In this document: piece after piece, positions 45,110 through 63,649 of the stretch
Layout: every line of letters begins with the position of its first letter
Numbering within the stretch: the first letter of the stretch is position 1
Assembly: GCA_965552055.1 (NCBI GenBank)
Contig: CBEVQO010000004.1
Span: 169,833-233,832, forward strand
Length of the DNA stretch: 64,000 nt
Direction: 5' to 3'
Source: an uncultured bacterium
GTDB taxonomy: Bacteria; Hydrothermota; UBA3073; NMUJ01; CBEVQO01
Notes under the pieces: generated by a model
Told to the model about the DNA's origin: nothing
Database searches by the model: none
What the model saw: only the letters and a program-made list of their open reading frames with translations
Program-made: the position numbers and the translations under genes

Positions 45110-45384
45110 CTCCATTTTTATTCCTTACTTAAAAACCAATATAAACCAAAAGTCCCAATGGGATCAGCAATTGATATTTCCTTTCTGTGAAAATTTATTT
45201 CCAATAAAAAAGCCAAAGGTATCTCTGATAGCATGGTAAGGTTTTAATTTTAATTTATTTGAGATTTTTCCCTTACAGTGTCTCCCTTTGCTTCTTTTAC
45301 TGCCAATAAAAATACAAACACAAGCATACTCCCCCTTACTCATATTAACCCTATTTTAAAAATGTCAATATAAAAAATTTTATT

Positions 45385-45480
45385 ACGAGCGAAGCGAGTG
45401 CATTACCAATGGGTTGTGAGCCAACACCCCGACTGAAAGGAGGGGTGTGCACGAGGGCGGTGGGGACAGGGAGGCGGGGC
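45385..45480. repeat. GC-rich palindromic intergenic element (REP/MITE-like)
   Basis: CGAGCGAAGCGAG; hairpin CACCCC-GACTGAAAGGA-GGGGTG (45425-45447); outer GTGCA/TGCAC pairing; sharp GC contrast with flanks. Confidence 0.45.
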
Positions 45481-45522
45481 TAAAAATATTTGACAAAACA
45501 ATTATTCGATTAAAATTATTGA

Positions 45523-49061: not shown

Positions 49062-50098
49062 GTTTATACCATCTTATAAAAAGATTAAATAGAAAAAAAT
49101 TTGAGCCACAGGTAATTTTACCAGAAAAAGGAGAATTTTATGAAATGTTAAAAGAACTTGGTATAAAGATACATCTTGTAAAAATGCGGGAAATAAGAAA
49201 AGGTAATATTGCGGATATTATGAAGACTTCTTTTGATATAGCGAAGATAATAAAGAAAGAAAAGGTTTCTTTAATTCATGTAAACAGTTCTCGTTCAGCG
49301 ATTTACTGCGGGATTGCAGCTAAAATCACAAGGATACCTTTAATAACACATATAAGAGTGATTCAGAGAGAGCCTCTCTATGACTGGGTTATCGCTTTTT
49401 TATCCACAAAAATAATAGCAATTTCAAAAGCAGTAAGAAAAAGATTTGATTACCTATCGGATAAAAAAGTTAAAATAATTTATAATGGCATTGATGTAAA
49501 TGAGTTTAAACCAGGAGGTGAGAAAAAGTTAAAAAGAGAATTAAATTTGAAAGATGAATTTTTACTTGCTTCGGTAGGGAATCTAAATCCCTATAAAGGG
49601 CATGATTATGTAATAATGGCGTTTAAAGAAGTAAAGGCTAAGATAAAGAAAGTAAAGTTAGTAATATGTGGTGAAGGTGAACAAAAATCATATTTTATGA
49701 GATTATCAAAAAGGTTAGGATTATCTCAAGATGTCATATTTCTCGGGAGAAGACAGGATATTGTTGATGTAATGGATTCTATTGATGTTTTTTTGATTTC
49801 TTCTTTTTCTGAGCCTTTTGGCAGGGTAATTTGTGAGGCGATGGCATGCGAAAAGCCAGTGGTAGGTGTTAAAGCAGGAGCAATTCCAGAAATAGTCGAA
49901 GACGGTAAAACCGGTATTTTATGTAAACCAAAAGATATAAAAGAGTTTGCAGAGGCTATAATAAGACTTTTGAAAGACGAAAAATTGAGAAAAGAGATGG
50001 GAAAAAGGGGCAGAGAAAGGGTTGAAAAATTTTTTACAATCGAGCGAAATGTAAGAGAGATTGAGAACTTATATGATGAAATCTTAAAATGTTGTTAA
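48992..50098 (+). CDS. Glycosyltransferase family 4
   Basis: GGGQ, YNGID, KGH, EPFGRVICEAMA. Confidence 0.9.
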   Translation: MSEEVKVVLYADSTGKIKGGGQLSLYHLIKRLNRKKFEPQVILPEKGEFYEMLKELGIKIHLVKMREIRKGNIADIMKTSFDIAKIIKKEKVSLIHVNSSRSAIYCGIAAKITRIPLITHIRVIQREPLYDWVIAFLSTKIIAISKAVRKRFDYLSDKKVKIIYNGIDVNEFKPGGEKKLKRELNLKDEFLLASVGNLNPYKGHDYVIMAFKEVKAKIKKVKLVICGEGEQKSYFMRLSKRLGLSQDVIFLGRRQDIVDVMDSIDVFLISSFSEPFGRVICEAMACEKPVVGVKAGAIPEIVEDGKTGILCKPKDIKEFAEAIIRLLKDEKLRKEMGKRGRERVEKFFTIERNVREIENLYDEILKCC

Positions 50099-51339
50099 TT
50101 CTTGGTGGAGGATTAACGGGGTTAAGTACAGGTTATCATTTGAAAAAGAAAGGATTCGAAGATTTTTTAATAATTGAAAAAGAAGAAAAACCGGGTGGAC
50201 TTTGTAAGTCCTATTTTAAAGATGGATTTACTTATGACTACGGAGGGCATTATTTACATTTTCGAACCGAATATGCGGAAAATCTTGTAAAAAATTTGTT
50301 GAAAAATAATTTGAAAAAACACGAAAGAAAATCCGTGATATATATAGATGGGAAGTTTATACCTTATCCCTTTCAACGAAATTTAAGAGGATTATCTTTT
50401 AAAAAAATATCAGAATGTCTATTTGGCTTAATTTTTGCCAGATTACAGAGGAAAAAAGCTTTGAATTTTAAAGACTGGATAATCCAAAATTATGGCTATG
50501 GGATGGCGAAATATTTTTTTATCCCGTATAATGAGAAGCTGTGGGGTGAACTCACTGAAATAACAACAGAATGGACAAAAAGATTTGTACCCGATACTTC
50601 TTTTTTAAAAATTTTAAAAAGTTTAGTGAAACCCGATTTAAAAGCAGGATATAATCCTGAATTTTATTATCCCGAAAGGGGAGGGATACAGGTATTGACT
50701 GATAAAATTTTTGAATACATAAAAGACAAAGTGAAGCTTAAAGAAAAAGTGGTAGAAATTGATATTGCCAAAAAGGAAGTGAGAACAAATAAAGGAATAT
50801 ATACTTACGAAAAATTGTTGAATACGATTCCTTTACCCGAATTTTTAAGGATTTTGAAAAATGTTCCTTTTCAATTTAAAGAAATAGGTGGAAAGTTGAA
50901 ATGTGTAAGCGTTTATGTTTATTGTATAGGTTATAGGGGAAAAACGCCACCTTATCACTGGATATATGTACCGCAAAAGGAATTTAAATTTTACAGGGTG
51001 GGATTACACAGTAACATTTCTGCGAATCTTTCGCCCGAAAATTGGCAGGCTATCACATGTGAATCGAGAGAAAATTTGAAATTTGACGAAATTATAGAAG
51101 GACTCAGAAAAATGAGGGTTATAGGAGAAGGAGAAACAAAAGATAACGGCAAGCTTTTTATAAAATATGCATATGTTATATATGATGAGTATCGCAGGTA
51201 TTTATCTTTTGTTTTTTCTTTTTTAGAGAGTAAAGATGTCTTTTGTGGTGGACGCTTTGGTAGATGGGAATATTCAACGATGGAAGATTCTTTAATCTTT
51301 GGTAAAAATTTTTCGGAATTTTACTTGAGAAATCCATAG
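50089..51339 (+). CDS. FAD-dependent oxidoreductase (HemY/UDP-galactopyranose mutase-like, glycan locus)
   Basis: GGGLTGL, GGLC, DYGGH, YNEKLW, FYYP..GG, GRFGRWEY. Confidence 0.85.
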   Translation: MLLILGGGLTGLSTGYHLKKKGFEDFLIIEKEEKPGGLCKSYFKDGFTYDYGGHYLHFRTEYAENLVKNLLKNNLKKHERKSVIYIDGKFIPYPFQRNLRGLSFKKISECLFGLIFARLQRKKALNFKDWIIQNYGYGMAKYFFIPYNEKLWGELTEITTEWTKRFVPDTSFLKILKSLVKPDLKAGYNPEFYYPERGGIQVLTDKIFEYIKDKVKLKEKVVEIDIAKKEVRTNKGIYTYEKLLNTIPLPEFLRILKNVPFQFKEIGGKLKCVSVYVYCIGYRGKTPPYHWIYVPQKEFKFYRVGLHSNISANLSPENWQAITCESRENLKFDEIIEGLRKMRVIGEGETKDNGKLFIKYAYVIYDEYRRYLSFVFSFLESKDVFCGGRFGRWEYSTMEDSLIFGKNFSEFYLRNP

Positions 51340-51360
51340 TTAAATTTTGCATTAAAAAGC

Positions 51361-51387
51361 TTGACAGACTTTTATTTTGATTATAAT
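51361..51387 (+). promoter_or_regulatory. Perfect TTGACA-N15-TATAAT promoter of the insert
   Basis: TTGACA 51361-66, TATAAT 51382-87. Confidence 0.7.
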
Positions 51388-51465
51388 AGGATGATGAGGG
51401 AGTTTTTAATTTGGGTTAATGTAATTAGGGAGAGGGGGACACATTTTAAAAGCATAAGAGATTTT

Positions 51466-51490
51466 ATCCTATCCTATCCTATCCTATCCT
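51466..51490 (+). repeat. (ATCCT)5 microsatellite
   Basis: Five exact tandem copies. Confidence 0.9.
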
Positions 51491-51647
51491 TGGTACTTTA
51501 GTGAAGGCGTTCCCTAGAGGCGTAAATTCATTTAGTGAGCCCCGACCCCTTTAGGGGATAGGGGACGGGCGCCATCCCGACCCGAATGGGGCAGGGCAGG
51601 TGAATGGGGTTTGTTCTTTGAGAGGTTAAAATTTTTAAAAGGAGGGT

Positions 51648-52229
51648 ATGATGTTAAGGAAGATAAGTCTTTTGGCAATTATCATAGTTTTTCCTTTGTT
51701 TGGAGAAGTAACTACGGAAATGACTACAATAGAAGTGAAAACAGACGAAGATTGGAAAGCTATAATTCAGCAACATCCTGAATGGGTGGCGCTTAAGAAC
51801 CCCGGTAAAGTTTATTTTGTAGAAATCATATTAAAAAATATTGATAAACTTGCGTTTGATTCAGAAGGTCACCGTAGAGCTTATTTAAATAAACTTAAAG
51901 CAGTTATAGCTACAGCTAAAACTCAAAATTGGCAAGGAGTAATTCAAAAGATTGAGAACGATCTTATACCACATGCAAAATCTTGGTTAACAAAAGAAAA
52001 TCATATAATTGCAGTAGAACTTTTACTTAAATTACAAAAGTTAACTTACGAAAAGCGGGCTACTACTTTATATGTTTGTGAAAGTTGTATAGAAGAGCTC
52101 TTTTCAAGAATGCTTGAAGAAGAACTTACGTGTAAAATAAAAATAAAGTTTTATTTCAAATGCAAATGGACTCAGAAAGGCGGTCTTAGTTGCGAGGTAG
52201 GAATAACAATTGAATGGGAACGGAAGTGA
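51648..52229 (+). CDS. Secreted hypothetical protein: helical body plus Cys-rich cationic beta-hairpin C-terminus
   Basis: SD AGGAGG; signal peptide; all 5 Cys fall in the last ~50 aa. Confidence 0.75.
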   Translation: MMLRKISLLAIIIVFPLFGEVTTEMTTIEVKTDEDWKAIIQQHPEWVALKNPGKVYFVEIILKNIDKLAFDSEGHRRAYLNKLKAVIATAKTQNWQGVIQKIENDLIPHAKSWLTKENHIIAVELLLKLQKLTYEKRATTLYVCESCIEELFSRMLEEELTCKIKIKFYFKCKWTQKGGLSCEVGITIEWERK

Positions 52230-52235
52230 AAAGCC

Positions 52236-53783
52236 ATGCAACATATTTTTATTAAATGCGCGGTTGGATGTTTAGTTATCCTCTCCGGGTGCTATTATTC
52301 TCTGGCTAAAAAAGAAGTAGGATGTGCATGTACTTTAGGTGTTGGAGGAGGAAATCTACAGGTAATAAGTAAAAGTGGACGAGTTTTATCATACCAGAAT
52401 ATTAAAGTATTCTTTAAAGATGCTGATCAAGAAGATAAAGCAAAAGAAGCATTGGAGTTGCTTAAATGTGGTAAAAAAACTATAGAAGAAATTACAGGAT
52501 TAAAAACAATACCTATAAATGTAAAAATAATTAAAAAGGGGAGCTTTATTGGGAAAGGAGATATCTGGGGTGTTTCGATTAAAACAGATGAAACATTTAA
52601 AAGTGATTTAGCTACTGTGATTCACGAGATAACAGAACAGACGATTAGAAGAGAGCAAATTAAGGGCAGGTTTGTTTTTGATGGGATAGCTGAGTATGTA
52701 AGGTTAATATTCCAAGAGAAGTACTTACCAACACTTTTTTATAAAGAAAATACAGCGTTTTATTTTTTATTTTATCCTCTTGATAGAGAAAAAAGATTTG
52801 ATATATGTAAATGGAAGGCGGTTTCTCCTATACTGCTCTTCAAGATGATTTTCTTACCGGGTAAAATGAAGGAAAAAGTAGCAATTAGTCAAGTAATTTA
52901 TTATTGGATTTCAGCGTATTTTTGGGCCAAAATGGTTGACAAATCAGGCAAAACAGATTTAATTCGTGCTTTTATTGCTAAAGTGTTAAGCTTACCTCCA
53001 AAACATCGAAAAATTGAGTCAGAAATTAAAATACTGGAAGAGCTTACAGGATTGGAAGTTCGAAAAGAGATGGTAATTTCTGTAAATGAAATGATAGAAA
53101 ATTTACCTAAATATTTTTTATTTTTTAAAATACCCAAGAATATGGTACCTATAAAAATAGAAGACGAAAAATATATTTTCATAGATAAGTATGAAGTTAC
53201 AAATGAAGAATTTGTAAAATTTCTTAACGAATGTGGCAATCAAATAGAAGGGGGGAAGCCATGGTTATGCGAAGAGTGTAATAGGGAAATAGAAAAAATA
53301 GGGAAGAGATATAAGGTTAAACCAGGGTACGAAAATTACCCCGTGAGATTTGTTACATGGTACGGAGCAAATGCTTATGCTAAGTGGGTTGGGAAGCGTT
53401 TACCTACAAAGGAAGAATGGATAAAGGCTGCTGTTGGAGATAAATATAAGAGATATCCATGGGGTAATAAATGGCAAAAAAATTATTGTAATTGGGGTGA
53501 ATACGGTAAATATGACAAGTATAAGGAGACATCTCCGGTAAATAGTTTCGAAAAAGGTAAGTCAGAATATGGATGCTATAATTTAGTGGGAAATGTAGCA
53601 GAGTGGGTTCAACCTTTTGAAGGAAATTACTTATATTTAGGTGGTTCATATATGGATGATAAAAATTTCGTAAATGTTTATTCTTTCGGAAAAGGCACTC
53701 CTAATAGCAGCTATTCATATGTAGGATTTAGATGTGCAAAAGACTTCCCAACAATTAACGAGTTGCGTGAATTACATAAATGA
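52236..53783 (+). CDS. Putative lipoprotein: gluzincin-like domain (HExxE) + FGE-sulfatase/SUMF1 domain
   Basis: LSGC lipobox; VIHEITE...FDGIAEY; IDKYEVTN, YPV..VTW, KRLPT.EEW, YPWG, GNVAEW, VGFRC. Confidence 0.75.
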   Translation: MQHIFIKCAVGCLVILSGCYYSLAKKEVGCACTLGVGGGNLQVISKSGRVLSYQNIKVFFKDADQEDKAKEALELLKCGKKTIEEITGLKTIPINVKIIKKGSFIGKGDIWGVSIKTDETFKSDLATVIHEITEQTIRREQIKGRFVFDGIAEYVRLIFQEKYLPTLFYKENTAFYFLFYPLDREKRFDICKWKAVSPILLFKMIFLPGKMKEKVAISQVIYYWISAYFWAKMVDKSGKTDLIRAFIAKVLSLPPKHRKIESEIKILEELTGLEVRKEMVISVNEMIENLPKYFLFFKIPKNMVPIKIEDEKYIFIDKYEVTNEEFVKFLNECGNQIEGGKPWLCEECNREIEKIGKRYKVKPGYENYPVRFVTWYGANAYAKWVGKRLPTKEEWIKAAVGDKYKRYPWGNKWQKNYCNWGEYGKYDKYKETSPVNSFEKGKSEYGCYNLVGNVAEWVQPFEGNYLYLGGSYMDDKNFVNVYSFGKGTPNSSYSYVGFRCAKDFPTINELRELHK

Positions 53784-53797
53784 ATAATAAAATGTGA

Positions 53798-55105
53798 GTG
53801 AAAGTGAATGATATTTGGCTGCTATTTCTTATTATCTACAATAACTTTAAATTCTCCTCACACTCTGATTTTACAAATACTATATTTTCTTATGATGAAA
53901 AAGCTTCTACTATAAATGAATTGAGAAATAAATTTGATGCGATATTAAGATACGATTTTAAAAATATTTCATTGCAAACTAAATTATTTGCTGAATTCAA
54001 ATATGATTTTGATACGCTTATTAATTATAAAATTCCATTTGATTTAATCTTTTGCTATATGCCAAACAAGAATTATTCTATTGGATTGGATTCACGATTC
54101 TATAAGTCTTCGAATGATTCACTAATTAAAATTTATTGGATAAATATGAAATATCGGTACAAAGATAATACAATAAAATTGTCTCAATTGAAATTTCGGG
54201 GTGTCAGAACCACAAGTTGTATTTTTGAAGGTAAAACTTATACCCTTGGTTACGCCCGCAAATTTACAGGTGCAAAAACTTATAAAAGTTTATTTGCTTC
54301 AAAAAGATTTAAAAAATTTACCATAAGGACGAATATTGAATCAAGAACATTTATGTGCGGAGTTTATGCATCTCACAATACCCCGTCAGGGAAAAGGAAG
54401 CTTAAATTTACTTTTACAGGGAATCATAACGAATTTAAATTTTATAAATATTCATCCTGCATAGGTTATGAAACCAGCAAACTAAATCTTGAAATAAACA
54501 CGCAGATTGATTCTCTAAAAGATTGCAATTTAAAATTAAAATCTAATCTAAAAGAGAAGCGTTTCAAAACAGATATTGCATATAGGGGATTTAGAAATTT
54601 TGAATATGGTGGGGTGATTTTTACAATTACGCCGAATGACTGGTTAGAAGCTACTTTTAGGGCTTCTATTACTCGCAGTTTTGATAGGGTCGATTCAATA
54701 GGTGTAGAACTTGGTCATTACTTTGAATCACTATTTTTGAATTATGGAGCAAGTCGAATTATAAAATTTAGCGAAGTAAAGAATATATTTTATGAGAATA
54801 TTGAAAAGGAATTTTATTTCAGCAATATGGGGCTGATTTTTTCTATCATTTTATCACAGGAAATTTGCAAGGAGAAATCATTTATGCATGAAATAAGTAT
54901 TACTTTTTTCCATAAGGATTTATATTTTGGAATAAATTACCAGAATGACATTAGTTCTGGTAGTTATACATGGCATGATGCATATTTCACATTGGGGTAT
55001 AATTTTAAAAAACATAAATTTGAACTTTGTTATTTCATTTCGGGAGAGAAAATTAAACATCCAGAAATGAAAACCTTCTCATTCTCATATTTGCATAAAT
55101 TTTGA
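53798..55105 (+). CDS. Putative outer-membrane beta-barrel hypothetical protein
   Basis: Strand-rich and aromatic-rich; C-terminal FSFSYLHKF; GTG start. Confidence 0.55.
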   Translation: MKVNDIWLLFLIIYNNFKFSSHSDFTNTIFSYDEKASTINELRNKFDAILRYDFKNISLQTKLFAEFKYDFDTLINYKIPFDLIFCYMPNKNYSIGLDSRFYKSSNDSLIKIYWINMKYRYKDNTIKLSQLKFRGVRTTSCIFEGKTYTLGYARKFTGAKTYKSLFASKRFKKFTIRTNIESRTFMCGVYASHNTPSGKRKLKFTFTGNHNEFKFYKYSSCIGYETSKLNLEINTQIDSLKDCNLKLKSNLKEKRFKTDIAYRGFRNFEYGGVIFTITPNDWLEATFRASITRSFDRVDSIGVELGHYFESLFLNYGASRIIKFSEVKNIFYENIEKEFYFSNMGLIFSIILSQEICKEKSFMHEISITFFHKDLYFGINYQNDISSGSYTWHDAYFTLGYNFKKHKFELCYFISGEKIKHPEMKTFSFSYLHKF

Positions 55106-55155
55106 AATTTTTCGGAATTTTACTTGACTACTCTCTAATTTGATTAAAATTTTTA

Positions 55156-56160
55156 ATGGAGGGTAAGATGAGGTTGTGGCATTATGTTGTGATTGCGTTG
55201 TTGGGGACGAGTCTGATGTGTTCTCGTGCGAAGCCTCCTACGAAAGAAGAAACCGAAGAAGAGTTCCTTTCTCAGCCTCAAAGGATATCCGAAGATGTTG
55301 AAAATTCTCTTGCAGGACAGGCACTTGCGGATTTTGCAGAAAAACAAGAAAGTTATAAAGGTAAAGTAAAACTTTTCTCAAAGGAATTCGCACTGAGCTA
55401 CTATAAGATTTTCAGAAAAAGTAAACAGGAGGAGTCTTATGGAACCTACGAATGGGATACCACATTTCATCAATGGGTGCTTGTTGACTCTACTTATCCT
55501 GCTGATGGCTGGCTCTTTAAATGGACATTTACAGATACCGCAGGCAACCCGCATTCAGCTGAATTTCTAATTGATTCTTTAAAATATCAGGTGATAGTTT
55601 ACGATGAGTATCCTGATTCAATACCAACGAGGGCTCATGCTTCTTTAAAAGTGGATAACTCCGAACTCGCCTGGATGTTATTCCATGCACAATATACAAC
55701 AGAAGGAATACCCGAAAAAGCAGACCTTACACTTGAATTAGTAGGCGTAATACAAGTTGGAATGGAGTTAGAACTTTCTGGTGTTACAACTGAAGAAATA
55801 CCCATCGGTAGCGTTCATTTCTGGATGATAGATTATAAACAAAACAATTATCGGATTGATTTAACTATAAAAGGTAATCAGGATTCTTCTATTGACATTA
55901 CACTTGAAGATAATAATGGCTGGAAACTCGTTATGGATATAAGTGCACCCGAGGCAGTTGTAGAAGCGAGTTATGCTGGAAAGAAATGGGAAGTCACAGG
56001 CGAAATCACACGCAAAGGAGCGCATGCTGCGGATATCGAAGGAACTATCTGGGACCCCGATGTGGAACCCGACCATGTATCTGAAATATGGGTTGTCTTT
56101 CCTGACGGGACAAAGAAATCTCTTGAAGATTATTTTAGCTTCCTTGAGGAAGAAGAGTAA
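55156..56160 (+). CDS. Hypothetical lipoprotein
   Basis: Signal with SLMC; acidic beta-rich body; promoter TTGACT-N15-TAAAAT at 55124-55150. Start may be 55168. Confidence 0.7.
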   Translation: MEGKMRLWHYVVIALLGTSLMCSRAKPPTKEETEEEFLSQPQRISEDVENSLAGQALADFAEKQESYKGKVKLFSKEFALSYYKIFRKSKQEESYGTYEWDTTFHQWVLVDSTYPADGWLFKWTFTDTAGNPHSAEFLIDSLKYQVIVYDEYPDSIPTRAHASLKVDNSELAWMLFHAQYTTEGIPEKADLTLELVGVIQVGMELELSGVTTEEIPIGSVHFWMIDYKQNNYRIDLTIKGNQDSSIDITLEDNNGWKLVMDISAPEAVVEASYAGKKWEVTGEITRKGAHAADIEGTIWDPDVEPDHVSEIWVVFPDGTKKSLEDYFSFLEEEE

Positions 56161-57935: not shown

Positions 57936-60900
57936 ATGATGATAATTTATTTGCTTACATTTAGTTTAATATGGCAGAAATTTCTGGATTTCGGTGGTAT
58001 TGATGAGGCACATGATGTAGCGGTGTCTTCCGATGGCTACATTTATGTGATAGGAGAAGACAGGAAAGATGTTATTTTATGTAAATTGACACCTCTTGGG
58101 GATACGGTTTTCACAAAGAGATTTGGCTCATCTGGACAGGATTTTGGTGAAGGGATTGCGATTGATAAGACGGACACTGCGATTATTTCCTGCGGCGGTT
58201 ATAACGGTTACTCTGATATTTTCCTTGCGAGACATAAAAAGGATGGGAGCAATGTTTTTCTCAATACTTATAATCATGGTGCACTTGAAATTGCAGAAGA
58301 TGTTTGTGTTGATGCCAATCGTTATATAGTATTATGTGGATGGGTGACACCAGCTATTCTTCAACAACATAATTTTCTTGTTAAAAAATTAAATCAGGCA
58401 GGTGCAACAATATGGACTAATACTTTCAAGATAATCAATTGCGACTCAAGATTAAGAAGTATTTCATGTGATAATACCGGGAATTATTATTACGCGGTAG
58501 GAAGTGTGTGGGATTCAACTGTTGCTCAATCTGACTGGATAATTTTGAAATTTGATTACAATGGAAACTGTATCGATACTTTGAGATGGGATGGCGGAAG
58601 CGATGATGATGCTTATGGGATTTGTGTTGATAAATCGGGTAAGATTGTAGTTGTCGGTGGAACTGAAATTTCCACCTGGGATATAAAAATAATGCGACTT
58701 TCTGAAAATCTTTCTATTTTATGGGAAAGAACATTTGATAATGGTGGATTTGATTGTGCTTATGGAGTATGTGTAGATGATAACAATAACATTTATATTT
58801 GTGGTGAAACTGAAATCGGGTCAGAAAGACATTTATTTGTCGCAAAATATGATAGTGCAGGAAATTTGCTTGACAATTTAGATATAGATGTGGGAGATAA
58901 AGCAAGGGCTTATGGTGTTGCTTACAAAGACGGAGAAATTTATATTACAGGTTTCAGAGAATTAGCAGGTGATACCGACTGGGTTATAGTTAAACTTTCA
59001 GATTTCACAATTTTAAAATTTACTGCAGATTTCGATGATACAAACAATTTCTATGCAAGAAAGCGCCTTTATACTATTGAAGTTGATTTATTCAATGTTT
59101 CTGGTGGAAATGCAATTGATACTGTGTATCTTGAAATTTTGAAAAATGGAAATGTTATCTTTCGCAGTATTTATAATAGAAAAAGCTCAGACCCTGACTC
59201 TTTTGAAATTTTAACAGGTGCTCAATATGTTATTGATAAGGACTCCTGTTACCATGTGATAACAGGTGATACTTTAAAGTGTTATTTCAGGTACTGGTTT
59301 GACTGGGATTTCCCCGGAGACACAGGACTTATCCTGCGTACTTATGCAGTTGATACAGCAGGACATAGAACAGCAAATTATAACTTATCATGCGATGTAG
59401 ATACTGCCATAAAAATCGATACATTTTATATAAATCCAGAAACAACAAATATAGGGGATACTATTATCTGGTATTACAAAATACTTTATAAACTTTCGCA
59501 AACGATAACGCCACCTGACTCCGAAATAGACACCGCTTTTCTACTTTTAGAAAATTTAGCACTTTGCAGGGATACGGTATTAAGAAAAGTCGTTTCTACG
59601 GATACTACACATGCCGAATATGTGAAAGGTGTTTATATTTATCATCCACAGGTTAAATTATCGCATCAAGGTGGATTTTATGATTTTACACAATTGAAAG
59701 ATACTGTTTATGTTCTTTCGCCGTTTAAAATAATTTCTTTATCTGCAGATTTTGATGATACAAATAATTTTTATGCGAGAAAAAGACTATATACAATAAA
59801 AACACAGGTAACGCATTATTTAGGGGGCGGTGCGATAGATACATTTTACTTGGAGATTATAAAAGGAAATATTATCCTTCGCAGTATTTATAATAGAAAA
59901 AGTAGCGATCCGGATTCTTTTGAAATTTTAGTTGGTTCTCAATATGTTATTGATCAAGATTCTTGCTATCATCTAATATTAGATGATACTTTGAAATGTT
60001 ATTTCAGATATTGGTTTGATTGGGATTTTCCTGGGGATACAGGCATTATATTACGGGTTTGTGCGGTAGATAGCTTCTCGAATCGTAGTAAATGGGATAC
60101 AATATATTGCGATGTAGATACTGCCATAAAAATTGATACATTTTATATGTATCCTGAAAGTGTATTGATACTTGACAAAGTTTACTGGCATTGCGAAATA
60201 CTTTACAGCATGTCAAATTCAATCGCACCTCCTGATTCCGAAATAGATACCTGTTTCTTATTCCTTGAAAACTTATCTTCGAAAAGAGATACAGTTTTGA
60301 GAAAGTCAATCTTTACAGACAGTTTATTTGCTGAGATTTTACCTGGTACTTATATTTATCACCCACAAGTTGTTCTTGCGCATCAAGGTGGATATTTTGA
60401 TTTTGTTCAATTCAAAGATACAATTTATGTCTCTTTAACAAAAGTAAATCCTATCTCTCCGCTTGATTCTTCGGCACTCAATACACCCACACCTCTCTTT
60501 GTATGGCATGTGGTACCTTCTGCAAATTATTACCACTTACAGATAGCAACTGATACTCTTTTTGTAAAATCTTTAATTCTCGATACAGCAGGGATTACAG
60601 ACACCTTTTTTGCATTGAAAGATACTTTGGAGGATGGGATTTATTACTGGCGAGTAAGAGCTTACGATACCCTTGGCAATACCGGTGAATTTTCAAATAA
60701 AGTTATGTTCTGGATAGATACTCATTCACCTGAAATTTTAAAAGTATATTACGATTATTATCAGGATTCTTTACCTAATTCCGTTATTTTCTATGCTATT
60801 GTTCGAGATAACTTTTGTGTAGATTCCGTATGGTTTCACTATCTCCCGGGATGGGAGCAGTGCGATACTTTTAAAATCTTAGAAATGCAATTGGAAGATA

Positions 60901-61277
60901 CGGTGTGGAAAACGCCGCCGATAATTTTTGAAAGCTCTCCTTGTATGATTTATTTTGTTAGAGCAAAGGATAAGGCAAATAATTTTGCATATTCAGATAC
61001 CGGTTTCATCGATGTTACCTTTGAATCTATCACAAAGCCAGAAATAGAGATATATCCTACAATTGTTAGAAATGTTATCAATTTAAAACTTCCAAAGAAT
61101 AAAATTGCACGATTTGAAATTTATGATTTAACTGGAAGAAAAATCAAAGAGTTAAAAATACTTTCCGATGGAAAGGTGCAAAAGGTTAATTTGAAATACT
61201 TACCAGCAGGGATTTATTTTGTTAAGATGAGATGCGAAAATTCAGAAAGAATTTTCAAGATCCTTGTTATAAAATGA
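57936..61277 (+). CDS. Large T9SS-cargo surface protein: beta-propeller, two ~240-aa tandem domains, Ig/FN3-like domains, CTD
   Basis: Propeller repeats; duplicated ADFDDTNNFYARKRLYTI module; YYWRVRAYD; C-terminal IYP...IYDLTGR...LPAGIYFV...KILVIK. Confidence 0.8.
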   Translation: MMIIYLLTFSLIWQKFLDFGGIDEAHDVAVSSDGYIYVIGEDRKDVILCKLTPLGDTVFTKRFGSSGQDFGEGIAIDKTDTAIISCGGYNGYSDIFLARHKKDGSNVFLNTYNHGALEIAEDVCVDANRYIVLCGWVTPAILQQHNFLVKKLNQAGATIWTNTFKIINCDSRLRSISCDNTGNYYYAVGSVWDSTVAQSDWIILKFDYNGNCIDTLRWDGGSDDDAYGICVDKSGKIVVVGGTEISTWDIKIMRLSENLSILWERTFDNGGFDCAYGVCVDDNNNIYICGETEIGSERHLFVAKYDSAGNLLDNLDIDVGDKARAYGVAYKDGEIYITGFRELAGDTDWVIVKLSDFTILKFTADFDDTNNFYARKRLYTIEVDLFNVSGGNAIDTVYLEILKNGNVIFRSIYNRKSSDPDSFEILTGAQYVIDKDSCYHVITGDTLKCYFRYWFDWDFPGDTGLILRTYAVDTAGHRTANYNLSCDVDTAIKIDTFYINPETTNIGDTIIWYYKILYKLSQTITPPDSEIDTAFLLLENLALCRDTVLRKVVSTDTTHAEYVKGVYIYHPQVKLSHQGGFYDFTQLKDTVYVLSPFKIISLSADFDDTNNFYARKRLYTIKTQVTHYLGGGAIDTFYLEIIKGNIILRSIYNRKSSDPDSFEILVGSQYVIDQDSCYHLILDDTLKCYFRYWFDWDFPGDTGIILRVCAVDSFSNRSKWDTIYCDVDTAIKIDTFYMYPESVLILDKVYWHCEILYSMSNSIAPPDSEIDTCFLFLENLSSKRDTVLRKSIFTDSLFAEILPGTYIYHPQVVLAHQGGYFDFVQFKDTIYVSLTKVNPISPLDSSALNTPTPLFVWHVVPSANYYHLQIATDTLFVKSLILDTAGITDTFFALKDTLEDGIYYWRVRAYDTLGNTGEFSNKVMFWIDTHSPEILKVYYDYYQDSLPNSVIFYAIVRDNFCVDSVWFHYLPGWEQCDTFKILEMQLEDTVWKTPPIIFESSPCMIYFVRAKDKANNFAYSDTGFIDVTFESITKPEIEIYPTIVRNVINLKLPKNKIARFEIYDLTGRKIKELKILSDGKVQKVNLKYLPAGIYFVKMRCENSERIFKILVIK

Positions 61278-62680: not shown

Positions 62681-63649
62681 ATGGTAAGGATTAATTTTTG
62701 GATGATTTTTATAGTTATACTAATGTCTTATTCTATTCCATTATATAGTGAAGAAAAAGGTAAGAGAAAAGTTATGCAATGGGAAGTGGAGAAAGCAGAA
62801 CCGCTCTCGCCAGCATTTGATAGGAGTAAAAGGAAAACGAACTGGTTGGGATTGTGGTTGTCATTTTTTGAAGAAGCTTTGGATGAGCGGAAGCGCATTC
62901 CAAGAGCGATCAGCCGATGGAAAGAACTTGAAAGTTCTGCTACATATAGCTCACCTTTATATGGAGATGGTACACCGATGTATAAAAGTAAAAATGAAGA
63001 AAAGCGGGCGATAGTAGAACTAATAGGTAAAGCTTCGGATAAAAGAGGATTATTTATAATTAAGCAAGCCCTAATCAATGGGGATAAAAAATTAAAACTT
63101 TCTGCAATGAGAGCGCTTATAGGATTTAATGATTCTTTAGTGGTAAAGGAGTTCAAGCCGATTTTGAGAAAATTCCTCGAAGATAAAGATGAGGAATTAA
63201 AAGTTTCAGCTGCTGTGACATTAGCATTCTGGAGAGACACTGCGGCTTGGGATGTTCTTAAGGAACACCCTAACCCGGATGCTTTAATGGCCTTGGGTAC
63301 AGAGGAATCAGTAGCTTTTTTAGAGGAAATAAGAAGAAAATTACCTCCTTCTCCTATAGGAAAAGTAAAAGACCCTTGGTGTGAAGTTGTTATGACACAC
63401 ATCGCTGGAGTCATATACCCTTGGCATGAGATTTTAGAAAGGTTAAAGAGTGATAATTTTGTCTTGCGCGAGATAGCACTTATACATTTGATGATGATAG
63501 ATACGCCTGAGGCAATTGAACTAATAAAAAAGTGTCTCAATGATCCAAATCCTTATGTGCGACAACATGCTGAGGAGGTGTTAAATTTTTTACCTACATG
63601 GAGAAAATTTGTGAAAAAGCAAAAAGAATTTGAAGGAGGTGAAAAATGA
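62681..63649 (+). CDS. Exported HEAT-repeat protein
   Basis: Signal peptide; LEDKDEELKVSAAVTL, LNDPNPYVRQHAEEVL. Confidence 0.8.
   Translation: MVRINFWMIFIVILMSYSIPLYSEEKGKRKVMQWEVEKAEPLSPAFDRSKRKTNWLGLWLSFFEEALDERKRIPRAISRWKELESSATYSSPLYGDGTPMYKSKNEEKRAIVELIGKASDKRGLFIIKQALINGDKKLKLSAMRALIGFNDSLVVKEFKPILRKFLEDKDEELKVSAAVTLAFWRDTAAWDVLKEHPNPDALMALGTEESVAFLEEIRRKLPPSPIGKVKDPWCEVVMTHIAGVIYPWHEILERLKSDNFVLREIALIHLMMIDTPEAIELIKKCLNDPNPYVRQHAEEVLNFLPTWRKFVKKQKEFEGGEK

What the first reader, a model, noticed from the sequence alone, without database searches (positions are those of the whole stretch)
51306..55127. Integrase-less 3.8-kb island bounded by a perfect 23-bp direct repeat
Seen: AAATTTTTCGGAATTTTACTTGA occurs at the 3' end of the oxidoreductase gene and again at the stop of the third island gene. 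Deleting the insert would give an alternative gene end (...NFSEFYLTTL*) and place the 55124 promoter directly behind it, a clean empty site. No recombinase or transposase is inside. Inference: the insert arrived by site-specific or microhomology recombination acting in trans, and may excise as a circle.
Basis: partly seen in the sequence, partly recalled or inferred. Interest (0 to 1): 0.7.

Follow-up and report, generated by a model that had tools for sequence, protein, structure and literature searches.

The report
Recent recombinase-free insertion duplicating its target
A 3.8-kb block of three genes, predicted to encode exported proteins, sits between two identical 23-base copies of a gene-end/promoter overlap; one related sample has the clean empty site, so it is a real, likely recent insertion, most likely made by the host's own DNA repair or recombination rather than by a mobile-element enzyme, a known pattern.

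Summary
The 23-bp repeat is exact (51306-51328, 55105-55127) and occurs only twice in the genome. The predicted empty site exists: a contig from run X3 joins 51305 to 55105, skipping exactly 3,799 bp. Runs X1, X2 and loci L080/L081 carry the filled form. Between strains the insert differs at 0.25% of sites against 1.4% in the flanks, so it is likely young and the empty form likely ancestral. The repeat is both the oxidoreductase's last codons and the UP/-35 part of the next promoter, so duplication spares both. No circle junction, att-like dyad, terminal inverted repeat or cognate recombinase was found. The host encodes Ku plus ligase, ComEC and DprA. Best reading: host-made 'insertion with target duplication' (PMC2853133), here with non-RM cargo and a shorter repeat. 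This scan has reported this pattern before on other DNA, including another 23-bp case on this contig. One open lead: the insert's 240-nt promoter-leader has one paralog, which also lies just inside a (17-bp) repeat; about 1% by chance, untested.

The parts
50089..51339 (+). Host FAD-dependent oxidoreductase; its last codons hold the left repeat; ends ...FYLRNP* in the filled form and would end ...FYLTTL* (same length, 416 aa) in the empty form
   Evidence: Pfam NAD_binding_8/Amino_oxidase; translations; homologs end at about the same position
51306..51328 (+). Left copy of the 23-bp target duplication (followed by G, so the -35 box TTGAC is broken here)
51329..55104 (+). Inserted DNA, 3,776 bp, 31.7% GC against 35.6% for the genome (lowest 4% of 582 windows); absent from the X3 contig
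51361..51387 (+). Insert's own promoter-like site TTGACA-N15-TATAAT, in the geometry typical of this genome
   Evidence: consensus match, not tested for activity
51352..51593 (+). Promoter plus long leader shared with one other locus (C2:208058-208293), 83% over 246 nt, 96.6% over the 119-nt core 51475-51593
51465..51489 (+). (TATCC)5 tract; 4 units in L080, 3 at the C2 paralog; X2 and X3 contigs have 5- and 10-nt gaps consistent with 4 and 3 units
51648..52229 (+). g1, 193 aa, signal-peptide-like N terminus, no Pfam/NCBIfam family; distant homologs sit directly upstream of g2 homologs
52236..53783 (+). g2, 515 aa: predicted gluzincin (M1/M61 aminopeptidase-like) fold with HExxE in place of HExxH, fused to an FGE/sulfatase-modifying-factor domain
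   Evidence: Pfam PF03781; model pLDDT 80.8; Z 12.5 to M1/M61 aminopeptidases over about residues 47-313 and Z 18.6 to FGE paralog over 300-504; conserved H, E, E
53798..55105 (+). g3, 435 aa orphan, beta-rich, possibly an outer-membrane barrel (weak); its stop codon ends on the first base of the right repeat
   Evidence: weak, recognition below threshold; model unusable
55105..55127 (+). Right copy of the 23-bp duplication; UP-like region and start of the -35 box of the downstream promoter
   Evidence: upstream 19-mer scores at the 85th percentile of 291 promoters; 0.4% of random sites score as high
55124..55150 (+). Host promoter-like site TTGACT-N15-TAAAAT for the 55156 gene, kept intact in both forms
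55156..56160 (+). Host gene downstream of the site (334 aa, lipoprotein-like signal, no family)

Best explanation
The block is a presence/absence insertion bounded by an exact 23-bp duplication of its target, likely recent and likely made by the host's own repair or recombination machinery rather than by an element-encoded or site-specific enzyme. Shown: filled and empty forms both exist; the empty form has one copy of the 23-mer; the insert varies far less between strains than its flanks. Inferred, step 1: DNA from a related lineage carrying one whole transcription unit (promoter and leader through the stop codon of g3) entered the cell, likely by natural transformation. Inferred, step 2: it was joined in at an AT-rich gene-end/promoter overlap by short-homology joining (template switch and return 23 bp back, fill-in of a staggered break, or a single crossover), which duplicated the target. 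Inferred, step 3: the event survived because the duplication gave the oxidoreductase a same-length end and left the downstream promoter whole. Inferred, step 4: it has since moved between strain backgrounds by ordinary homologous recombination in the flanks, and can likely be lost again through the repeat.
For: Empty junction in X3. Strain differences against L080/L081: 9 of 3,648 sites inside, 81 of 5,703 in the near flanks, Fisher p = 1e-9; synonymous 3 of 645 against 46 of 1,046. X1 and X2 contigs show the same pattern, 0.12-0.21% inside and 1.0-1.65% outside. Flank alleles are mosaic: X3's empty contig matches the window on the left (0 differences over 51112-51305) but shares 55192, 55294 and 55308 with L081 on the right. 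The 23-mer scores like a promoter upstream region while coding the enzyme's last residues, as expected if the single-copy state is the old one. No dyad or terminal inverted repeat above background. Isolated exact repeats of 20 bp or more within 0.5-15 kb are 37 direct against 3 inverted in this genome, with unrelated sequences and lengths (some are paralog-internal). ComEC, two DprA, and Ku next to an ATP-dependent ligase are encoded. PMC2853133 describes insertions with variable target duplication and no mobile-element genes, often spanning start or stop sites and often in competent species. PMC6379672 shows bacterial NHEJ capturing foreign DNA at a break.
Against: The enzymatic route is not shown; the evidence for it is mostly the lack of signs of other routes. 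23 bp lies within the range of att cores and below the >30-bp cut-off of PMC2853133. The NHEJ junctions in the passages read from PMC6379672 were mainly deletions, and the word 'duplication' does not occur in its main text. ComEC and DprA are common (they ring in 10 and 11 of 14 control genomes). The empty site rests on one contig in one run, and X3 also holds insert pieces at depth 3.5-4.5. L080/L081 share alleles with X2 and may not be independent of it. The C2 leader paralog inside a second repeat is not explained by this reading.
Confidence: 0.62

Rival explanations
1. The 23-mer is an att core and the block is a CIME-like remnant, integrated or excised by a tyrosine or serine recombinase supplied in trans.
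For: Exact repeat of att-like length at a gene's 3' end, with a replacement tail of equal length (RNP* for TTL*), as integrative elements give. An integron-like tyrosine recombinase and an IS110 transposase are in the genome. The empty site is clean.
Against: No arm symmetry above background. No second copy in the genome. The exact 23-mer in JGI metagenomes gave only 2 loci, both this site. No circle joint in the runs laid. None of the 24 g2-homolog loci screened has a repeat pair that I read as bounding the module. No resolvase-family enzyme found. An in-frame stop at that codon is not rare in promoter spacers (11-19% at neighbouring positions).
Confidence: 0.14
2. The shared 240-nt promoter-leader is the cis-acting end of a non-autonomous element that captures different cargo and inserts at promoters with a variable 17-23-bp target duplication.
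For: The only other copy of the leader (C2:208058) starts 28 nt inside a unique 17-bp direct repeat (C2 208014/211412, 3.4 kb apart); the window copy starts 24 nt inside its repeat. Only 4 of 284 promoters have such a repeat; two are long tandem duplications and the other two are these two loci, about 1% for C2 by chance. The core is 96.6% identical while its flanks are less alike.
Against: The C2 repeat is a -10 box plus start codon with a full -35 box at both copies, so promoter consensus can explain it; 90 of 42,195 promoter pairs share 17 or more bases in register. No C2 empty site could be tested. The two blocks share nothing at the other end. The leader folds no better than shuffles, shows no compensatory change in 3 sequences, has no Rfam match, and was not found in 250-271 other phylum genomes, viral contigs or GTDB genomes (one 3-mismatch hit in G010, not examined). 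No Y1, TnpB, DDE_1, rve or RT family in the genome.
Confidence: 0.12
3. The filled form is old and fixed, and X3's empty form is a recent deletion through the repeat; low diversity inside reflects selection or a sweep.
For: Filled form in the window, X1, X2 and L080/L081; all 4 clustered oxidoreductase proteins end RNP. Direct repeats are deletion substrates (established knowledge). Only one empty contig was seen.
Against: Synonymous differences are about 9-fold lower inside, which protein-level selection does not explain. The repeat still needs a duplication to arise. g2 is missing from all 21 other genomes of the class searched. X3's own allele may be a re-deletion without changing the insertion history.
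Confidence: 0.09
4. The X3 junction is an assembly or library chimera across the repeat, and the repeat is a chance match between AT-rich sequences.
For: One contig only; one search was run at 85% likeness; the repeat resembles promoter consensus.
Against: 194 and 287 nt on the two sides, 0 and 3 differences, depth 6.78, seen again at 90%. The 23-bp overlap is shorter than the 31-letter words the tool names, so a join needs real reads (inference). The cut falls exactly on the repeat, and the diversity drop follows the same borders.
Confidence: 0.03

Closest known systems
[quoted passage not shown]
   Same: Small insert without mobile-element genes, direct duplication of the target, clean empty site in another strain, repeat at a gene boundary that spares the target gene, competence genes in the host.
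   Different: Cargo is not restriction-modification, so no nuclease in the insert could make the break; 23 bp is below that paper's >30-bp criterion.
CIME, cis-mobilizable element (definition read in PMC5704250)
   Same: No integration or transfer genes; flanked by direct repeats at the 3' end of a gene.
   Different: No sign that the repeats are attL/attR of a known integrase, no recombinase remnant, no tandem ICE/IME, no circle seen.
Long-TSD transposons and casposons (IS1630 19-26 bp as stated in PMC2853133; casposons recalled)
   Same: Duplication length in the same range.
   Different: No terminal inverted repeats above background, no transposase or casposase inside; the only cas1 found lies by a CRISPR array on C1.
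Ku/LigD capture of foreign DNA at breaks (PMC6379672)
   Same: Host encodes Ku beside an ATP-dependent ligase; needs no element enzyme.
   Different: Reported junctions carry mainly deletions; a 23-bp duplication is not reported in the passages read; the ligase here is 306 aa, ligase domain only.

Membership tests
Insertion with long target duplication (PMC2853133) | Single copy of the repeat at an empty site in a related strain | tested here: met
   X3 contig
Insertion with long target duplication (PMC2853133) | No mobile-element genes in an insert under 20 kb | tested here: met
   3.8 kb; Pfam and NCBIfam scans
Insertion with long target duplication (PMC2853133) | R and M genes in the insert | tested here: not met
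   g1-g3 hit no RM family; g2 is gluzincin-like plus FGE. It works like this class but is not a member as defined.
Insertion with long target duplication (PMC2853133) | Duplication longer than 30 bp | tested here: not met
   23 bp exact; 80% over 41 nt if extended
CIME / att-flanked integrative element | Direct repeats at both ends, no own integrase | tested here: met
CIME / att-flanked integrative element | Repeats are recombinase core sites (inverted binding arms around a 6-8-bp spacer) | tested here: inconclusive
   Best dyad 7 of 11, at background; real att sites can be degenerate
CIME / att-flanked integrative element | Excision as a circle by a cognate integrase | tested here: inconclusive
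   No circle joint in contigs of 6 runs; contigs drop rare forms
CIME / att-flanked integrative element | Descent from an ICE/IME with the same att sites | tested here: inconclusive
   No such element in metagenome, phage, plasmid or viral searches
Transposon or casposon with long TSD | Terminal inverted repeats just inside the duplication | tested here: not met
   Score reached by 19% of random pairs from the insert
Transposon or casposon with long TSD | Transposase or casposase in the element or in trans | tested here: inconclusive
   None inside; genome has one IS110 transposase and one cas1, none of Y1, TnpB, DDE_1, rve; other transposase families not searched
Xer/dif-type module (IMEX, pdif) | Repeat resembles the host dif site | tested here: inconclusive
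   A recalled dif pattern gave 3 weak candidates, none at this site; the host dif was not identified
Zinc gluzincin peptidase (g2 N-terminal domain) | HExxH motif plus downstream Glu | tested here: not met
   HExxE in g2 and in the aligned homologs; fold matches; activity untested

The most novel reading that the evidence does not exclude
The 240-nt promoter-leader is the end of an undescribed non-autonomous element. A host or visiting enzyme uses it to insert whole transcription units with unrelated cargo at promoters, leaving 17-23-bp target duplications; the window block and the C2 block would be two members, and the varying TATCC tract would tune cargo expression.
Probability: 0.12. Interest if true: 0.7.

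Novelty: new variant of a known kind. Interest (0 to 1): 0.38.

Why it matters
It is a well-documented case of an uncultured vent bacterium gaining a whole operon without any mobile-element gene: filled and empty forms coexist, and the diversity contrast dates the event. It extends 'insertion with target duplication' from restriction-modification genes to envelope-type cargo that cannot itself cut DNA, which points to host machinery. How such duplications form is still open, and this site gives exact junctions to test. The pattern itself is known and recurs in this scan, so surprise is moderate. Interest would rise if the leader proved to be a mobilisation signal, or if the g1-g2 pair (small exported protein plus HExxE gluzincin-FGE fusion, seen in two phyla) proved to be a new processing system.

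Tried and rejected
Close relatives in GTDB: no other genome of the same family is held; the best oxidoreductase homolog among 40 relatives is 43% identical, in other contexts, so no outgroup for the site. Circle junction: none listed. CRISPR link: 147 spacers, best matches 11-15 nt. IS110 element on C6: shares only 8-10-nt AT-rich words with the junctions. Diversity-generating retroelement for the FGE domain: no template repeat and no RT family. Leader as a known RNA or IS end: no Rfam match at E<=1, no folding signal, no exact 21-mer in viral or GTDB contigs; its likeness to IS605-type end hairpins is recalled only. Phage or plasmid origin: no match. The GC-rich intergenic repeat family beside the integron-like recombinase is distinct from the leader (81 BLAST hits, only CCCCGAC shared in the part shown; that output was cut). 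g3: no homolog beyond its own cluster, fold prediction failed (pLDDT 33), and the search of 50%-identity representatives was still queued at submission, so remote g3 homologs are untested. The g2 'pdb' fold search showed only the FGE domain. Paper searches were for the class, not this locus; I make no claim that it is absent from print. No supplements were read.
Full report
Observation. The 23-mer AAATTTTTCGGAATTTTACTTGA is exact at 51306-51328 and 55105-55127, with 0 matches in 100 shuffles. The genome (2.23 Mb, 15 contigs, 97% complete; window = C4:169833-233832) has no other copy within 3 mismatches. Between the copies lie a promoter-like site, a long leader and three same-strand genes, none hitting a recombinase or transposase family. 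Homologs of g2 come mostly from WOR-3 genomes (record titles), and runs holding the stretch are labelled hydrothermal vent where labelled.

The empty site exists. Of 10 runs listed I laid 6. In X3 one contig of 481 nt (depth 6.78) runs 51112-51305 and continues at 55105-55391, skipping 3,799 bp with 23 letters fitting both sides. At 90% likeness its loose end is window 51276-51305. X1 and X2 bridge both filled junctions. A scan of JGI metagenomes for the 23-mer gave 2 loci, L080 and L081, both filled. X3 also holds insert pieces (51332-51597 at depth 3.5; 54776-54971 at 4.5), so it is probably mixed. X4, X5 and X6 did not decide the matter. No circle joint appeared among the 4 joints or the 4 loose ends; these are contigs and cannot show absence.

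Age and direction. Against L080/L081 the insert differs at 9 of 3,648 sites and the near flanks at 81 of 5,703 (p = 1e-9); synonymous differences are 3 of 645 against 46 of 1,046 over five flanking genes. X1 and X2 contigs agree: 0.12-0.21% inside, 1.0-1.65% outside. L080/L081 share alleles with X2 and may not be independent of it. The nearest flank differences lie 115 bp left and 26 bp right of the repeats. X3's empty contig has the window's alleles at 51180-51190, where X1, X2 and L080 differ, and L081's alleles at 55192, 55294 and 55308. I infer a young insertion whose flanks have been reshuffled by homologous recombination. Repeated insertion, or re-deletion in X3, would give the same picture and is not excluded.

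Why this site. The genome's promoters peak at TTGAC-N-N15-TA(A/T)AAT (291 sites against 7-54 at other spacings). The first 19 bases of the repeat score at the 85th percentile of their upstream regions, and 0.4% of random sites score as high. In the empty form the oxidoreductase's last codons overlap the next gene's promoter. Duplicating 23 bp leaves the promoter whole on the right and gives the enzyme an end of equal length on the left (RNP* for TTL*). The insert runs from 32 bp before its own -35 box to the stop codon of g3, so it is one transcription unit. Its promoter has the host's N15 spacing, whereas 18 g2-bearing loci of other genomes peak at 16 (13 of 23 sites), which suggests a close donor or a host-derived promoter (inference).

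Mechanism. Tests for a dedicated enzyme were negative. The dyad at the modelled left, right, empty and circle junctions is 7 of 11, matched by 65% of promoters; the terminal inverted-repeat score is matched by 19% of random pairs. The genome has XerD, an XerC-like enzyme and an integron-like recombinase, one IS110 transposase and one cas1; Y1, TnpB, DDE_1, rve, resolvase and RT families were not found (the assembly is incomplete and other families were not searched). It does encode ComEC, two DprA, and Ku next to an ATP-dependent ligase. Isolated exact repeats of 20 bp or more within 0.5-15 kb number 37 direct against 3 inverted after removing CRISPR and the GC-rich family; some are paralog-internal. 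One, at C4 165762/167455, is also 23 bp but unrelated in sequence. Different sequences and lengths argue against one att core. I therefore favour host short-homology joining (0.62); which of template switching, fill-in of a staggered break or a crossover did it cannot be told from sequence.

Cargo. g2 has a predicted gluzincin-like N-terminal domain (Z 12.5, rmsd 4.2-4.6, 223-249 aligned, to M1/M61 aminopeptidases) and an FGE domain (Z 18.6, rmsd 2.8, 194 aligned), with HExxE for HExxH. Its N-terminal part is found in 12 of 271 other phylum genomes, 10 of them in one family, and in a Cloacimonadia genome. A g1-like small gene lies directly upstream in 7 of 18 fetched loci (BLAST support is strong for 1, E 3e-4 to 0.01 for 3, 0.3-0.8 for 2, and 1 was added by position and alignment), and a profile of these finds the Cloacimonadia neighbour at E 2e-15. 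So g1-g2 travel as a pair in varied contexts. g3 is an orphan, perhaps an outer-membrane barrel (weak); all 4 differences from L081 change the protein. Function is untested; an exported processing or binding module is my guess.

The open lead. The promoter-leader has one paralog at C2:208058-208293, before unrelated genes. It begins 28 nt inside a unique 17-bp repeat spaced 3,398 bp. Only 4 of 284 promoters have such a repeat, two being long tandem duplications. Against this, the C2 repeat is a -10 box plus start codon with complete promoters at both copies, 90 of 42,195 promoter pairs share as much, the far ends share nothing, and no empty C2 allele could be sought. I give the element reading 0.12.

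Known work. PMC2853133 (12 passages, sections 15 and 18 read) defines insertion with long target duplication for RM genes with repeats over 30 bp, notes repeats spanning start or stop sites and competent hosts, and suggests double-strand breaks. This block works like that class but fails two defining criteria. PMC5704250 (one passage) defines CIMEs. PMC6379672 (8 passages) shows NHEJ capture with mainly deletions at junctions. PMC12359135 (abstract and outline) links transformation to gains of small gene sets. Earlier notes of this scan pointed me to the same class and report similar inserts in other genomes and one on this contig; they are unchecked AI notes and not support.

Verdict.

Noticed in passing
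window 54972-55027, run X2: X2's contig across the right junction (2,509 nt, depth 10.7) fits only 55027-55266; the other 2.27 kb upstream is unlike the window and its last 30 nt are not in this genome. A second insertion or alternative cargo in the 3' end of g3.
   Followed up: partly
G000 C2:208014-211428 (L101): Second block with the same promoter-leader, bounded by a unique 17-bp direct repeat; four genes (173 aa exported-type, TPR, 284 aa, 249-aa membrane protein).
   Followed up: partly
window 51465-51489: TATCC tract in the leader varies between strains (5, 4, 3 units); it is complementary to GGATAGG further down the leader, so it could alter leader folding (untested).
   Followed up: partly
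whole genome: Promoter-like TTGAC...TA(A/T)AAT pairs peak at a 15-bp spacer (291 against 22 at 17 bp); already noted by the scan (e1-5215273).
   Followed up: partly
G000 C7 78835/79436, C12 1376/10383, C8 88524/89387, C1 358408/398149, C4 165762/167455: Other isolated direct repeats of 23-39 bp that contain promoter or start-site sequence and bound gene blocks; candidates for the same insertion route.
   Followed up: partly
about window 45380-45490 (C4:215259) and dozens of other places: GC-rich intergenic repeat family, usually just upstream of promoters; one copy lies beside an integron-like tyrosine recombinase at C9:28375-29418 whose Pfam match is split in two.
   Followed up: partly
G000 C2:375208-376886 (L123): ku next to a 306-aa ATP-dependent ligase, right behind three tandem near-identical coiled-coil genes.
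   Followed up: no
G000 C6:126424-127452: Single intact-looking IS110 transposase, with fragments of the same element at C1:171684, C1:358245-358403 and C5:37460.
   Followed up: partly
window 57936-61277: 1,113-aa protein with a T9SS-type C-terminal domain and an internal 717-bp repeat; much more variable between strains (126 differences in 3,224 sites) than its neighbours.
   Followed up: no
window 62681-63649 and G000 C12:352-1329: Two HEAT-type genes begin with the same 55 or so residues and then diverge.
   Followed up: no
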